A DNA stretch of 20,000 nucleotides from an uncultured virus (IMG/VR IMGVR_UViG_3300043774_001054). Its lineage: Duplodnaviria > Heunggongvirae > Uroviricota > Caudoviricetes. The notes beneath the pieces were generated by a model. The model saw only the letters and a list, made by a program, of their open reading frames with translations, was not told where the DNA came from and did not search any database. A program made the position numbers and the translations under genes. How positions within the stretch are numbered: the stretch's first letter is position 1; every line of letters starts with the position of its first letter. This document shows positions 13,834 through 17,314 of the stretch, piece after piece. Location of the stretch: positions 53,458-73,457 of IMG/VR virus record IMGVR_UViG_3300043774_001054; one strand, given 5' to 3'.

Positions 13834-14499
13834 TTAGAACTTGAGGGTAACAGCCGAACGGAGACCAACCGTGGTCTTATCGAGATTGCCGTCCTGGAGG
13901 ACAACAAAACCGGCTGATAGGACCTTCCATGAAGCATCAAGTGAACCGCCGTAGTAGGCATTGGTGTATTTGATTTCCTTGACGGTGCGTGGGAAAACAT
14001 CATTTGCGTCGGTATAACCAGCAAATACTGTACCCGTGAGACCGAAGTCGCCAGCAAACTTGGCAGTTTGTGCAAACTTAGCTTCAACATTGGAGAGGTC
14101 GGATTCAACATCATAGCGTCCGGTAACGGTCACTGGACCCTTACCAACGGTAACGAATGGACGGAAGTGTCCATTTGAATCCTTACCCGGACGATTCTTC
14201 ATTGCATACTCGGTACCAACTTTTACGTCGGCAAGAGTTGAGACGAATGTATAACCGCCAAGGAATTTGAACTGGTAGAAATCGACAGAATCAATACCAT
14301 TGAGATGGGTATCTGCCGATGCTCCGACATTGAAACTGCCGATTGAGTAGTCGACTGCGGTAACAGCCGAACCCTTCGTATCAGTGACTTTGCCGAAGTC
14401 AATTCCTTTTTCTTGGTATCCAACCGAAACCGTGCCGCCAGCAAAGGCAGACGCAACAGCAAGAACCGAGATGAGTGTGAGTTTGATTAGTTTATTCAT
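13834..14499 (-). CDS. Outer-membrane beta-barrel protein (porin-like)
   Basis: Sec signal ending in AFA, alternating amphipathic strands, terminal Phe (TLKF). Confidence 0.85.
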   Translation of the reverse strand: MNKLIKLTLISVLAVASAFAGGTVSVGYQEKGIDFGKVTDTKGSAVTAVDYSIGSFNVGASADTHLNGIDSVDFYQFKFLGGYTFVSTLADVKVGTEYAMKNRPGKDSNGHFRPFVTVGKGPVTVTGRYDVESDLSNVEAKFAQTAKFAGDFGLTGTVFAGYTDANDVFPRTVKEIKYTNAYYGGSLDASWKVLSAGFVVLQDGNLDKTTVGLRSAVTLKF

Positions 14500-15263: not shown

Positions 15264-15634
15264 TGGTGGACCTGAGGGGAGTTGAACCCCTGTGTTCAAT
15301 AATTTTTCCGATAATTTTCTACAAGCTTAGTACTACTTAACTGTCGCCATGATACCGTAATACTGTATCATGATTGTTTTGGTGAGGATACACATCTTGT
15401 ACACCACTTCAAGACGGTCTCGCTTTTTATGACGAGTGTAACACTTAGCGAGAATCTGTGTTATCTACTCGATCACAGTTTTTAGGCTGCGAGTGGCATT
15501 TCTTCGGCGAAACCGAAGAAATTGCTGAGGGCTTTATTAATGCCGTTTAACTTTTTACCAGTTTTTAAAAGGTATCCGGAGAACCTTGCTTGCTTACTAT
15601 AAGTCTATTACTGAGTCGAATCCAGTACAGGCCC
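15264..15634 (-). ncRNA. ssrA: tmRNA
   Basis: 5' GGGCCTGTACTGGATTCGAC; 3' T arm plus CAGGTCCACCA with G3:U; 371 nt; internal frame ending LAA-stop. Confidence 0.96.
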
Positions 15635-15655: not shown

Positions 15656-15729
15656 TGGATGCTGGGGATGGAATTGAACCATCAGCTCCGCGTTATGAGC
15701 GCGACGAGTTACCGTTACTCTACCCGGCA
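15656..15729 (-). tRNA. tRNA-Met(CAT), atypical
   Basis: Loop CTCATAA; initiator-like A11:U24 but no three consecutive G:C pairs; C4.A69 mismatch; U73. Confidence 0.8.
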
Positions 15730-15735
15730 GGAAAA

Positions 15736-15988
15736 TGAATTTGGGAGGATTAATGATTACCTCCATCGTCCTAGTGTTTTCAGTTATTCAGTCATATGGT
15801 GCCGTCGCACCTTAATAGTCCGCTTGTCATTGTATTTCATGCTTACAAGACTATACCTCTGGTTGCTTAGGTTGGCCGACCCAAGTTTTCAGCGTAGTAC
15901 CTTACCTACTTACACATTGTAGAACTGAGTGATGTTCTTCACACCACCCATGCGTTAGCCCCATTAGAAAGGCTTATTCCGCCACAAA
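15736..15988 (-). ncRNA. Putative large structured ncRNA A (about 250 nt)
   Basis: At least 7 helices, e.g. TGGGTGGTGT/ACATCACTCA, CTTGGGT/ACCTAAG, ATAGTC/GACTAT, GGTGC/GCACC, GGAGG/CCTCC; ends TTCA. Confidence 0.7.
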
Positions 15989-16008
15989 AATTAAAAAAGA
16001 ACAAAAAT

Positions 16009-16295
16009 TAGTGGGACCGTGGATTAATGCCACGCACCGGTCTGTCCCGTAACCTGCTGGTAGAACTTGTATCCAGCCAAGGCATTGGTTTAAAGAGTGA
16101 CAATGCTTCCTCTCCAGGGTGTCGGGCAGTTTAAGTGCACCGACAAAATTTCTCTCATTCCGGCAACGTCAGCATACAGTCCCGACCAGTGCCTATTCCA
16201 CTATTATCGAGATTCTACAACTGTTGCAGACCGTGGTGACAATAGGTTCGTGAAACCAGTTGCAGAATGAGAGTCCAAGGAGATCAAGCCTTGGA
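16009..16295 (-). ncRNA. Putative large structured ncRNA B (about 290 nt) with tRNA-minihelix-like 3' end
   Basis: TCCAAGG/CCTTGGA, CTCTCATTC/GAATGAGAG, TGCAACTG/CAGTTGTA, TGTCGG/CCGACA; GGGAC/GTCCC-ACTA plus 5-bp/7-nt arm. Confidence 0.7.
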
Positions 16296-16362
16296 AAGTT
16301 TTTAGAAAGAACAAAACCGAATTGTAACGAGTGAGCCTCTATTCGTGGCTTTATATAAAAAG

Positions 16363-16536
16363 TCAAGATTTAAAGAATGCCGTTAGTAAAGTTCCGAAAA
16401 AGCAAACAACATTACCAACAAGCAAAGAGATAGAATATTTGTTCCAGCTCCGCATAAAGCCTGGGCGGTCCACGATGACTTTCCAGAAGGTGAATAACCA
16501 ACCAGCGAAGAACAACAAAGTTAATATTAGTTTCAT
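16363..16536 (-). CDS. Small two-TM membrane protein (57 aa)
   Basis: Manual translation MKLILTLLFFAGWLFTFWKVIVDRPGFMRSWNKYSISLLVGNVVCFFGTLLTAFFKS; TTGACT -35-like box upstream; not in the ORF track. Confidence 0.65.
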   Translation of the reverse strand: MKLILTLLFFAGWLFTFWKVIVDRPGFMRSWNKYSISLLVGNVVCFFGTLLTAFFKS

Positions 16537-16580
16537 AAAAGTAATAGTGAAGGGAATTTATAAAGAAAGTCAAGAAAAAA

Positions 16581-16653
16581 TGTCCACGGAGTCGAACCGT
16601 TTTTCACATAATATGATTATGGGCCACCACCTTCTAGCTAGAAAGGCTGGACA
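16581..16653 (-). ncRNA. tRNA-like RNA with canonical T loop but short acceptor and aberrant arms
   Basis: TGTCC/GGACA, ACGG-TTCGACT-CCGT, CATAA-TCATA-TTATG; no CCA. Confidence 0.6.
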
Positions 16654-16657
16654 AAAA

Positions 16658-16759
16658 TGAATCAAGTAGATGTTCGGTGTATTTGTCAATTTCCGCACCG
16701 TAGCCAATCAGCCCTAGACATATTAGGCGATTATTTTCATTAAACGGGTATCTACTTGA
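16658..16759 (-). ncRNA. Putative stem-closed ncRNA ending TTCA
   Basis: 10-bp closing stem TCAAGTAGAT/ATCTACTTGA; internal CGGTG/CACCG and AATC/GATT helices. Confidence 0.6.
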
Positions 16760-16762
16760 AAT

Positions 16763-16833
16763 TGAATCAGTGGTGAAGTTGCAGCAATTTATCTTCACTT
16801 TACATATACCTGCTTGGATAGTATCCTCACTGA
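16763..16833 (-). ncRNA. Mini tRNA-like RNA ending TTCA
   Basis: TCAGTG/CACTGA stacked on GTGAAG/CTTCAC; small GGAT/ATCC hairpin. Confidence 0.6.
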
Positions 16834-16837
16834 AAAT

Positions 16838-16958
16838 TAGATAGAATCGTATAGGCCGTGAAGATTTCAAGAGTCTTTGGGTCTTGCCATCCGTCGCACC
16901 CTGCGAAGTCCAATTAGGCCGAAAGAGCGGCATTTTTGTAACCTCTGATACGATTCTA
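16838..16958 (-). ncRNA. Putative stem-closed ncRNA ending TCTA
   Basis: 11-bp closing stem TAGAATCGTAT/ATACGATTCTA; internal GCCG/CGGC and TCGCA/TGCGA. Confidence 0.6.
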
Positions 16959-16980
16959 AAAGTTTTTAAAGAACAAAAAT

Positions 16981-17050
16981 TGGTGGACTTTATCGTTGCC
17001 CGACGACGGTGGATTTATACCACAGGCTCCGTACTGATTACCGTTTGCCA
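16981..17050 (-). ncRNA. Possible degenerate or permuted tRNA-like element ending ACCA
   Basis: 3' GTCCACCA; internal GTGG-TATAAAT-CCAC hairpin; no clean cloverleaf. Confidence 0.35.
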
Positions 17051-17061
17051 TTTTTTCAAAT

Positions 17062-17138
17062 TGGTGCCTCCTCCGAGATTCGAACTCGGAACCCACTGAT
17101 TAAAAGTCAGCAGCTCTGAACCGTTGAGCTAAGGAGGC
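17062..17138 (-). tRNA. tRNA-Lys(TTT)
   Basis: Canonical cloverleaf, loop CTTTTAA, CCA. Confidence 0.95.
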
Positions 17139-17285: not shown

Positions 17286-17314
17286 AATAAAAATGTGTTT
17301 TAAAAGAACAAAAG

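What the first reader, a model, noticed from the sequence alone, without database searches (positions are those of the whole stretch)
16009..16295. RNA of about 290 nt with a multiply pseudoknotted core and a tRNA top-half at its 3' end
Seen (minus strand): a 9-bp helix CTCTCATTC/GAATGAGAG closes a domain of about 120 nt. Inside it, the loop of TGCAACTG/CAGTTGTA holds CCTATT and ACGGTC, complementary to downstream AATAGG and GACTGT, and TCTCGA can pair with TCGGGA. The 3' end is GGGAC-N9-CGTGG-CATTAAT-CCACG-GTCCC-ACTA, i.e. an acceptor helix plus a 5-bp/7-nt T-like arm with no D or anticodon arm. Inference: compact nested pseudoknots suggest a ribozyme or ligand-binding RNA, with the minihelix as a processing or stability tag.
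Basis: partly seen in the sequence, partly recalled or inferred. Interest (0 to 1): 0.76.

Follow-up and report, generated by a model that had tools for sequence, protein, structure and literature searches.

The report
New folded RNA in phage tRNA array
The flagged stretch is two neighbouring non-coding RNA cassettes in a lake phage's tRNA gene cluster: a well-conserved, uncatalogued RNA whose two arms are clasped by a loop-to-loop helix, followed by a poorly supported add-on with a tRNA-like end, and what either does is unknown.

Summary
The window is the end of a 73-kb uncultured phage contig. Its minus strand carries 19 tRNA genes and a tmRNA. The flagged 287 nt are not one RNA.

Module A (16151-16297, minus) is a real, conserved structured RNA that is not in Rfam. 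It has a hairpin P0, then a 15-bp helix P1 that closes a three-way junction. The short arm's loop (CCUAUU) pairs with the tip of the long arm (AAUAGG). Across 13 distinct sequences in three deep lineages (53-62% identity between them), 96.6% of cells pair. 25 of 45 pairs show compensatory changes.

Two (TGCAACTG/CAGTTGTA and ACGGTC/GACTGT) break in the divergent rows and are replaced by better-supported helices.

Module B (16009-16144) carries the "tRNA top-half". It is a separate cassette, present after 4 of 15 module A variants. Its fold is no more stable than shuffles (z -0.87). A minihelix of that geometry turns up in 53 of 100 shuffled windows.

In two other lineages a pistol self-cleaving ribozyme follows module A instead. 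Contigs from RNA libraries cover the region.

Function is unknown. Most likely module A is a processed, trans-acting small RNA.

The parts
16274..16295 (-). P0: 7-bp hairpin with an 8-nt loop carrying the invariant UUGAUC; it abuts P1 directly.
   Evidence: helix 1: 98.9% of cells paired, 4 of 7 pairs with changes on both sides. Loop letters are invariant in A5. One search flagged the same hairpin as terminator-like on the + strand.
16259..16273 (-). P1, 5' strand (CUCUCAUUCU + GCAAC).
   Evidence: P1 forms in all 9 distinct P1 versions (13-15 bp, -17.9 to -23.9 kcal/mol) with different sequences. helix 2 covers the inner part: 4 of 7 pairs with double changes.
16152..16167 (-). P1, 3' strand (GUUGC, bulged C, GGAAUGAGAG). 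This is the end of module A.
16235..16257 (-). Pa: 3-bp stem (GGU/ACC) with a 17-nt loop, UUCACGAA-CCUAUU-GUC, that is largely invariant.
   Evidence: helix 3: 100% paired, 2 of 3 pairs changed on both sides (one lineage). Invariant columns.
16241..16246 (-). 5' strand of the loop-loop (kissing) helix, CCUAUU, inside the Pa loop.
   Evidence: helix 4: 6 pairs, 100% paired, 3 with changes on both sides, coming from two lineages.
16192..16197 (-). 3' strand of the kissing helix, AAUAGG, in the apical loop of P5.
   Evidence: helix 4.
16168..16231 (-). Long arm P2-P3-(8-nt bulge)-P4-P5. P2's 3' strand is directly followed by P1's 3' strand, with no linker.
   Evidence: helices 5 and 6: 95.4% and 99.4% paired, 12 of 22 pairs with changes on both sides. 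The RNAalifold consensus agrees.
16121..16144 (-). Module B, first hairpin: GUCGG(U)GCA-CUUAAAC-UGCCCGAC, 8 bp with a 7-nt loop.
   Evidence: MFE only. No covariation is available: only 4 near-identical variants exist.
16082..16116 (-). Module B: a possible H-type pseudoknot (GGAGAG/CUCUUU interleaved with GCAUUG/CAAUGC). Seen by eye and unverified.
   Evidence: Read from the sequence. Not tested against shuffles and not supported by variation.
16013..16048 (-). Module B minihelix: GGGAC, 9-nt bulge, CGUGG-CAUUAAU-CCACG, GUCCC.
   Evidence: Present, but at chance frequency. Five substitutions were seen among the module B copies: three in the minihelix region (one loop, one bulge, one G-C to G-U), one in another hairpin's loop, and one in the 3' tail (A to C in L236).
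16009..16012 (-). 3' tail ACUA (CCUA in L236), at the position where the window's tRNAs carry the discriminator base plus CCA.
15986..16008 (-). U-rich spacer AUUUUUGUUCUUUUUUAAUUUUU. Its core TTTTGTTCTTT recurs 4 times on the minus strand, once directly after a tRNA 3' end.
   Evidence: sites at 17311, 16976, 16314 and 16004.

Best explanation
The flagged stretch holds two independent RNA cassettes in a phage tRNA/tmRNA gene array. Both are transcribed on the tRNA strand.

Module A (16151-16297) belongs to an uncatalogued family of about 147 nt. It consists of a hairpin P0 stacked against a 15-bp helix P1. P1 closes a three-way junction with strands of 1, 3 and 0 nt. A short arm (Pa) and a long, bent arm (P2-P5) are locked together by a 6-bp loop-loop helix.

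Inferred mechanism for module A:
- It is made as part of the polycistronic array transcript.
- It is freed by the cuts that free the neighbouring tRNAs. In some relatives the downstream pistol ribozyme would cut the transcript just 3' of it, leaving most of the pistol attached to module A.
- It then acts in trans as a compact, stable RNA.
- Its invariant junction and loop nucleotides form a binding surface for a protein or small ligand, probably one connected with translation or tRNA metabolism.

Module B (16009-16144) is a lineage-restricted add-on cassette. Its 3' hairpin-on-helix may mimic a tRNA top half as a processing handle, but that is not supported beyond the sequence itself.

Shown: the fold, the conservation, the modularity, the array context, and presence in contigs from RNA libraries. 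Inferred: processing, trans action and a binding function.
For: Array context: 19 tRNAs and a tmRNA lie on the same strand. In relatives, module A is always co-oriented with tRNA or tmRNA genes. In L067 it starts about 2 nt after the CCA of tRNA-Lys.

Fold: MFE z -4.13, 0 of 200 shuffles as stable. RNAalifold found 27 of 49 pairs with compensatory change among 5 sequences. On 13 distinct rows, 96.6% of cells pair against 33-45% when the partners are slid. 25 of 45 pairs carry double changes, and 0 of 500 shuffles reach the observed percentage paired, number of pairs or cells with double changes, or covariation score. P1 forms in all 9 of its distinct versions.

Family size: covariance-model matches at E<1e-30 in 5 of 26, 25 (plus one truncated) of 95, 9 of 40 and 1 of 59 loci. 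These reduce to 15 distinct sequences in three deep lineages at 53-62% identity.

Modularity: L011 lacks window 16144-15993. What follows module A differs by lineage: module B, pistol plus another RNA, a manA-like RNA, or small hairpins plus tRNA-Leu.

RNA libraries: a 610-nt contig at depth 122.5 spans 15778-16297 and runs on into a tRNA 3' end. A second run holds a module A piece at depth 2.8. No contig covers the ORF stretch 16322-16627.
Against: No function has been tested. Contigs from RNA libraries cannot prove transcription or show RNA ends (caveat).

The covariation comes from only three deep lineages, so the cell counts overstate the number of independent events. One measure (further pair types: 36 observed against a shuffled mean of 38.4, with 476 of 500 shuffles at least as high) does not exceed the shuffles.

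The Pa stem has only 3 bp, and its covariation comes from a single lineage.

The architecture (a junction pocket plus a loop-loop clasp) is equally typical of riboswitch aptamers and of small ribozymes. Adjacency to a pistol ribozyme is the kind of clue that has led to new ribozyme classes (recalled). A catalytic or sensing role is therefore not excluded.

In the RNA runs, module A was much less covered than the manA-like neighbour (depth 2.8 against 247 in X16) and was not seen in X17 or X20.
Confidence: 0.68

Rival explanations
1. One reading: one RNA of about 290 nt, with a multiply pseudoknotted core and a tRNA top-half at its 3' end that serves as a processing or stability tag.
For: One RNA-library contig (X15, 610 nt) spans both modules without a break. 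Modules A and B are adjacent in 4 of 15 variants, and those variants have three different P1 versions. The same U-rich spacer core that follows one tRNA 3' end follows the minihelix tail.
Against: 11 of 15 variants carry module A without module B. L011 has a clean indel of exactly module B plus its spacer. Module B's fold is indistinguishable from shuffles, and the minihelix occurs at chance frequency. Two of the proposed core helices break in the divergent rows.
Confidence: 0.08
2. Module A is a new class of self-cleaving ribozyme that helps cut the tRNA-array transcript into its parts.
For: In L098 and L116 a pistol ribozyme (54.5 and 36.9 bits against a cut-off of 34.5) starts about 14 nt after module A. 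Self-cleaving ribozymes are known next to phage tRNAs: theta ribozymes, with a postulated role in 3'-trailer processing (PMC10879173, passages read). Module A has a compact junction with invariant single-stranded nucleotides held by a tertiary loop-loop helix.
Against: No known ribozyme model matches. The junction strands (1, 3 and 0 nt) do not fit the hammerhead core as I recall it. The RNA-library contig in X15 runs through module A unbroken, though contigs cannot show cleavage. No cleavage-site signature could be identified.
Confidence: 0.12
3. Module A is a ligand-sensing aptamer (riboswitch-like) that controls read-through into the downstream RNAs.
For: A P1-closed three-way junction with a loop-loop clasp is a common aptamer design. 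In the window-type lineage, P1 is followed by AAAUUUUU.
Against: No open reading frame or expression platform follows; the downstream neighbours are other RNA genes. The U-run sits 3 nt from the stem and is missing in the L098 and L116 lineages. The terminator scan called nothing on the minus strand.
Confidence: 0.1
4. Module B is a tRNA-derived or tRNA-like small RNA, in the manner of T4 rnaC. Its minihelix would be recognised by RNase P, RNase Z or the CCA-adding enzyme.
For: Module B behaves as a cassette with its own spacer. Its tail ACUA sits where the tRNAs have ACCA. The 5 substitutions seen among its copies fall in loops, a bulge, a G-U-compatible position or the tail. T4 rnaC, which lies in T4's tRNA cluster, pairs its 5' and 3' ends like an acceptor stem next to a canonical T arm. 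The RNA that follows pistol in L098 and L116 also ends in a 7-bp terminal stem plus GCCA or GCCU (read by eye).
Against: No tRNA model or ARAGORN hit. The T-like loop CAUUAAU lacks the UUC consensus (recalled). The acceptor-like stem has only 5 bp and its 5' strand is local. The tail varies (ACUA, CCUA). Chance gives such a minihelix in 53 of 100 shuffles. MFE z is -0.87.
Confidence: 0.3

Closest known systems
Phage T4 small stable RNAs rnaC (species 1, 139 nt) and rnaD (species 2, 119 nt)
   Same: Non-tRNA, non-coding RNA genes embedded in a phage tRNA cluster on the tRNA strand, annotated only as small stable RNAs (annotation). rnaC has tRNA-like ends. Its size is similar to modules A and B.
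   Different: No sequence match in the phage collection. rnaC pairs its 5' and 3' ends next to a canonical UUCGAAU T arm. Module A has no T arm at all, and module B has a local 5-bp stem and a non-canonical loop.
manA RNA motif (Rfam RF01745; Weinberg et al. 2010, PMC2864571, passages read)
   Same: A structured RNA of aquatic phages. A weak manA-like match (22.2 bits, cut-off 55.2) lies immediately downstream at 15734-16006. Another lies immediately upstream of module A in L116 (29.7 bits). The 3' hairpin of manA (..AguAAUCC..) resembles the loop of module B's hairpin (CAUUAAUCC).
   Different: The finding's own coordinates give no manA match at E<=10. The architecture of module A (P0 plus a three-way junction with a loop-loop helix) differs from the manA consensus structure printed.
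Self-cleaving ribozymes in phage tRNA arrays: pistol (RF02679) and HDV-like theta ribozymes (PMC10879173)
   Same: Small pseudoknotted RNAs placed beside phage tRNA genes. Pistol occupies the slot right after module A in two lineages.
   Different: Module A and module B match no ribozyme model. No cleavage has been shown.
Purine-riboswitch-type aptamers (three-way junction with kissing loops)
   Same: A P1-closed three-way junction whose two arms are tied by a loop-loop helix, with conserved junction nucleotides.
   Different: No Rfam match. The arms are very unequal (3 bp against about 22 bp with an 8-nt bulge). There is an extra 5' hairpin P0 and no downstream gene or expression platform.

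Membership tests
tRNA (RF00005) / tRNA-like top half | Match to the tRNA covariance model, or an ARAGORN call | tested here: not met
   Searches give no tRNA hit in 16009-16295, even at E<=10.
tRNA (RF00005) / tRNA-like top half | T arm: 5-bp stem and a 7-nt loop with the U54-U55-C56 consensus (consensus recalled) | tested here: not met
   The stem and loop lengths fit, but the loop is CAUUAAU (CAUCAAU in L067).
tRNA (RF00005) / tRNA-like top half | 7-bp acceptor stem ending in a discriminator base plus CCA | tested here: not met
   A 5-bp stem, and a tail of ACUA or CCUA. The window's tRNAs encode CCA.
tmRNA (RF00023) | Match to the model, with tag reading frame and tRNA-like domain | tested here: not met
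   The phage's tmRNA is a separate gene at 15264-15634 (105.6 bits). Nothing matches in the finding.
manA RNA (RF01745) | Score at or above the gathering threshold of 55.2 bits | tested here: not met
   No match inside 16009-16295. The neighbouring element at 15734-16006 reaches only 22.2 bits.
Known self-cleaving ribozymes (pistol, hammerhead, twister, twister-sister, hatchet, HDV-like) | Match to any Rfam ribozyme model | tested here: not met
   (E<=10, 15700-17100) finds none. Pistol is found only in the relatives L098 and L116, outside module A.
Known self-cleaving ribozymes | Site-specific self-cleavage | not testable with these tools
   Needs an in-vitro transcription and cleavage assay.
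T4 rnaC-like stable RNA | Sequence or model similarity to T4 rnaC or rnaD | tested here: not met
   blastn against the phage collection: no match for the window region, and only tRNA-Met matches for the L116 version. The folds differ.
Module A family (defined here) | P0 with a UUGAUC loop, P1, Pa, P2-P5 and a 6-bp loop-loop helix, all kept by compensatory change | tested here: met
   Window scores 183.5 bits against model R1; it was one of the 5 sequences the model was built from. Pair counts and the P1 check.

The most novel reading that the evidence does not exclude
Module A is a new class of catalytic or ligand-binding RNA: a self-cleaving ribozyme or aptamer that phages place in their tRNA arrays alongside pistol ribozymes, so that array maturation depends partly on phage-encoded RNA catalysts. 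The slot after it would then hold interchangeable processing devices (pistol ribozyme or a tRNA-like minihelix).
Probability: 0.12. Interest if true: 0.85.

Novelty: new variant of a known kind. Interest (0 to 1): 0.55.

Why it matters
Phage tRNA clusters have long been known to hold a few non-tRNA stable RNAs whose function has never been worked out; T4 rnaC and rnaD are annotated in the T4 record only as small stable RNAs.

This finding adds a well-supported new fold to that set. It also shows that such cassettes are shuffled as modules, each with its own spacer. It places the family directly beside pistol ribozymes, which links host-RNase processing and ribozyme processing within a single array.

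The result is a concrete, short (147 nt) and testable candidate for ribozyme or aptamer screening. It also corrects an attractive but unsupported picture: the tRNA-like tag is not part of the conserved RNA.

Tried and rejected
- Rfam: gathering threshold on the whole window and E<=10 on 15700-17100 gave nothing for the finding.
- blastn of the region, and of the L116 version, against 50,697 phage records gave no match beyond tRNA-Met.
- Anchoring on the 164-aa neighbouring protein found only identical contigs, one contig that ends before the RNA, and one distant contig without tRNAs.
- Exact 24-mer of the minihelix: identical contigs only.
- nhmmer with module B over all loci held and the whole 73-kb contig: near-identical copies only. 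No covariation test is therefore possible for module B.
- The looser pattern TTGTCACCACGG..GAATCT gave 3 chance hits in coding DNA.
- A last viral scan with a P0-free pattern gave 2 new loci, neither matching the model.
- 100 pattern loci without a model match are unrelated, mostly coding DNA.
- Genome collection: 58 of 59 pattern hits were chance.
- P0-like UUGAUC hairpins elsewhere in the contig: none convincing.
- Promoter and terminator scan: nothing on the minus strand near the finding.
- Hammerhead reading of the junction: rejected because the strand lengths (1, 3, 0) do not fit the core as I recall it.
- Parts of the laid stretch without RNA-library cover (16322-16627; module A and B in X17 and X20) carry no weight.
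- Literature: searches found no description of this fold. The 10,006-candidate viral catalogue (PMC10690425) was searched for two core strings and two contig numbers in 6 supplementary files, with no hit; files 1, 2 and 4 could not be searched. Prior listing there as an unnamed candidate cannot be excluded.
- Look-ups of earlier scan notes by sequence found nothing.

Full report
**Context**

The window is bases 53458-73457 of a 73,457-base virus record, estimated 45% complete. The flagged sequence occurs in it once. Proteins in the window match phage families: ATP-dependent DNA ligase, phosphoesterase and glycosyltransferase. The ligase's best cultured relatives are large myoviruses of alpha-proteobacteria at about 40% identity.

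The minus strand carries 19 tRNA genes and a tmRNA at 15264-15634. The finding (16009-16295, minus) lies in a stretch of about 700 nt without convincing ORFs. That stretch runs from a 57-codon ORF (16363-16536) to tRNA-Met (15656-15729).

No Rfam family matches the finding, either at gathering thresholds or at E<=10. The only nearby hit is a weak manA match (22.2 bits, cut-off 55.2) at 15734-16006, just downstream.

**The stretch is two cassettes, not one RNA**

A close relative, L011, aligns to window 16316-16145 and to 15992-15648. It lacks 16144-15993, which is the whole 3' half including the minihelix and its U-rich spacer.

A distant relative (L012/L013) has a homologue of the 5' part only (nhmmer E 1.7e-11). 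I therefore treat the region as module A (16151-16297) and module B (16009-16144).

Folding agrees with this split. Module A alone has MFE -54.2 kcal/mol and z -4.13, with 0 of 200 shuffles as stable. Module B has z -0.87, with 32 of 200 shuffles as stable. The whole 296 nt gives only z -2.40.

**Collecting relatives of module A**

- Pattern scans built from conserved columns, plus a tmRNA-anchored scan, supplied candidate loci.
- A covariance model (R1, from 5 sequences) then sorted them.
- Strong matches: 5 of 26 sources (one further 13.7-bit match in L043 I regard as noise), 26 matches in 95 sources including one truncated, 9 of 40, 1 of 59 genome-collection loci, and 0 of 2.
- The 100 pattern loci without a model match are unrelated, mostly coding DNA.
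- From the 35 matches I took 23. I left out 12: the same contig under another locus id, rows with the same score as an included row, or the truncated L087.
- With the window, these gave 24 sequences and 14 distinct ones. L236 added a fifteenth.
- They form three deep lineages: the window group (76-100% identity within it), L098 (53-62% to the others) and the L116 group (53-59% to the others).

**The fold of module A**

RNAalifold on 5 sequences predicted 49 pairs, 27 of them with compensatory change. I refined this to the following structure:

| Element | Window coordinates (minus strand) | Note |
|---|---|---|
| P0 | 16274-16295 | 7 bp, loop with invariant UUGAUC |
| P1 | 16259-16273 with 16152-16167 | closes the domain |
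| Pa | 16255-16257 with 16235-16237 | 3 bp, 17-nt loop |
| P2-P5 | 16168-16231 | long arm with an 8-nt bulge |
| Loop-loop helix | 16241-16246 (CCUAUU, in the Pa loop) with 16192-16197 (AAUAGG, in the P5 loop) | 6 bp |

The junction strands are 1, 3 (ACG) and 0 nt.

The outer part of P1 was left out of the count because MAFFT misregisters it. On the rest of alignment A5 (13 distinct rows), 96.6% of 582 cells pair, against 33-45% when the partners are slid by 1-3 columns. 25 of 45 pairs have changes on both sides. 0 of 500 shuffles reach the observed percentage paired, number of pairs or cells with double changes, or covariation score. One measure, further pair types, does not exceed the shuffles (36 against a mean of 38.4).

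The loop-loop helix is 100% paired, with 3 of 6 pairs changed on both sides in two lineages.

P1 was checked sequence by sequence. It forms in all 9 distinct versions, with 13-15 bp and different letters. In L069 and L236 the inner half is replaced outright: CCUGGC/GCUGGG instead of GCAAC/GUUGC.

Caveat: the deep lineages are few, so many cells reflect shared inheritance.

Three hold: the 9-bp closing helix, CCTATT/AATAGG and TCTCGA/TCGGGA.

Two do not. TGCAACTG/CAGTTGTA is 72.1% paired, and its outer pair is broken in 11 of 13 rows. ACGGTC/GACTGT is 87.2% paired and unpaired in the divergent rows at three of its pairs. Their strands are used instead by the P1 extension, P2 and P3, which covary.

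**Module B**

Module B follows module A only in the window type, L067, L069 and L236. That is 4 of 15 variants, plus a contig in run X15. nhmmer finds no other copy in any locus held or in the rest of the contig.

Five substitutions were seen among these copies. They fall in a hairpin loop, the T-like loop, the 9-nt bulge, one G-C to G-U change in the stem, and the tail (ACUA to CCUA). This is compatible with the drawn structure, but too little to test it.

A minihelix of that geometry appears in 53 of 100 shuffled windows. Its loop lacks the T-loop consensus (recalled), the stem has 5 bp, and no tRNA model matches.

In its favour:
- It behaves as a cassette that carries its own spacer.
- The spacer core TTTTGTTCTTT occurs 4 times on the minus strand: right after the CCA of tRNA-Arg, after an unannotated element ending ..GTCCACCA, upstream of module A, and after module B's tail.
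- T4 rnaC, fetched for comparison, pairs its two ends beside a canonical T arm. A tRNA-like end on a non-tRNA array RNA therefore has a precedent, though module B's version is much weaker.

**What sits in the slot after module A in other lineages**

- In L098 and L116, Rfam finds a pistol ribozyme about 14 nt after P1 (54.5 and 36.9 bits, cut-off 34.5), with the conserved hairpin and pseudoknot letters aligned. These were 2 of the 6 loci scanned. L077 and L060 carry the same sequence by eye.
- After the pistol comes a further RNA of about 170 nt. Its ends can form a 7-bp stem followed by GCCA or GCCU (read by eye).
- In L093 and L011 the manA-like RNA follows directly.
- In L058, L080, L056 and L055, small hairpins and tRNA-Leu follow; L052 has similar small hairpins but no tRNA in the DNA held.
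- In L116 a manA-like match (29.7 bits) lies directly upstream of module A.
- Self-cleaving ribozymes beside phage tRNAs have a published precedent: theta ribozymes, with a postulated role in 3'-trailer processing (PMC10879173, passages read).

**Expression**

Twenty public runs hold the stretch or part of it. Fourteen are lake-water DNA runs that hold all of it, and six RNA libraries hold about a fifth. Four RNA libraries were laid; all are contigs.

- X15 has a 610-nt contig at depth 122.5, with 19 differences and 4 gaps. It covers 15778-16297 and continues upstream into a tRNA 3' end, as in L067.
- X16 has a 189-nt contig at depth 2.8 that covers 16161-16240 of an L093-like variant.
- X16, X17 and X20 each have a contig of about 200 nt covering only 15768-15978, the manA-like element. 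In X16 it has depth 247 and runs into adapter sequence at 15977.
- Contigs cannot prove transcription or show RNA ends. The pattern of RNA genes covered and the ORF stretch 16322-16627 uncovered is what array transcripts would give.

**Interpretation**

Module A is a genuine RNA gene of an uncatalogued family. It is carried as a cassette in tRNA/tmRNA arrays of large aquatic phages.

My reading is that it is co-transcribed with the tRNAs and released by the same cuts, or by a neighbouring ribozyme. I then expect it to act in trans through a pre-organised binding surface. This is inferred from context, not shown.

A catalytic role or a ligand-sensing role remains possible. I give about 0.12 and 0.10 respectively. 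Module B may be a tRNA-like processing handle (about 0.3), but the evidence does not distinguish it from an unstructured, lineage-specific insert.

**Novelty**

- Rfam 15 has no model for it.
- The phage collection has no copy.
- Three literature searches found no description.
- The large viral candidate catalogue could be checked only in part.
- Earlier notes of this scan report several other uncatalogued folded RNAs in phage tRNA arrays, including a three-way-junction kissing-loop RNA between a tmRNA and a tRNA. Sequence look-ups did not link them to this family.
- The kind of element, a stable non-tRNA RNA in a phage tRNA cluster, is known. This fold and its pistol neighbourhood appear to be new.

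Noticed in passing
window 15734-16006 (minus): A weak manA-like RNA (22.2 bits, cut-off 55.2) sits between module B and tRNA-Met. Contigs of about 200 nt covering only 15768-15978 occur in three RNA libraries from different studies. One has depth 247 and runs into adapter sequence at 15977. This suggests an abundant, discrete RNA that lacks the final hairpin at 15737-15767.
   Followed up: partly
L098 1653-1719 (+); L116 1348-1407 (-): Pistol self-cleaving ribozymes above Rfam's cut-off (54.5 and 36.9 bits) lie inside phage tRNA/tmRNA arrays, about 14 nt after module A. In L098 the consensus G-U at the cleavage site reads G-A.
   Followed up: partly
L098 about 1716-1880; L116 equivalent: After the pistol comes an RNA of about 170 nt. 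Its ends (GCCACGC ... GCGUGGC) can form a 7-bp acceptor-like stem followed by GCCA (L098) or GCCU (L116). Before it is a 5-bp hairpin that covaries between the two lineages (UGCGA/UCGCA against GCGG/CCGC). It looks like another tRNA-like array RNA.
   Followed up: no
window 16980-17060 (minus): An unannotated element of about 80 nt follows tRNA-Lys. It contains the hairpin GUGG-UAUAAAU-CCAC and ends ..GUCCACCA, the same last eight bases as the phage tmRNA. The common spacer ATTTTTGTTCTTT follows it.
   Followed up: no
window 16575-16670 (minus): A hairpin with a canonical T-loop sequence (ACGG-UUCGACU-CCGU) is flanked by UGUCCA ... UGGACA, which can pair. It overlaps the end of a doubtful 99-codon ORF (16634-16933). 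RNA-library contigs start covering at 16655-16664. This may be another tRNA-like RNA rather than a protein gene.
   Followed up: no
window, minus strand: 17311, 16976, 16314, 16004: A recurrent spacer, TTTTGTTCTTT followed by an A-rich run, separates the RNA genes of the array. It is also present in the relatives L098, L116 and L236. It could be a processing or promoter signal.
   Followed up: partly
L044 2183-2259: ARAGORN calls a tRNA with a four-base anticodon (cctg) in a related phage's array. It could be a frameshift-suppressor type tRNA.
   Followed up: no
L058 986-1104 (minus) compared with L080 1772-1857: The tRNA-Leu(UAA) gene after module A carries an insertion of about 33 nt in the anticodon-loop region in L058. 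The Rfam tRNA match spans 119 nt at 40.1 bits, and ARAGORN makes no call. The insertion is absent from the otherwise similar L080.
   Followed up: no
L236 (4.2-kb contig): The only genome-collection copy of module A plus module B lies on a short contig binned into a Flavobacteriia MAG. It is either a weak host hint or phage DNA mis-binned.
   Followed up: no
window 13834-14499 (minus): A 221-aa protein with a signal-peptide-like N-terminus and a C-terminal ..TLKF, read by eye as resembling an outer-membrane beta-barrel, is encoded inside the tRNA array. It has no PHROG match. Relatives at 47-86% identity occur in the related phages.
   Followed up: no
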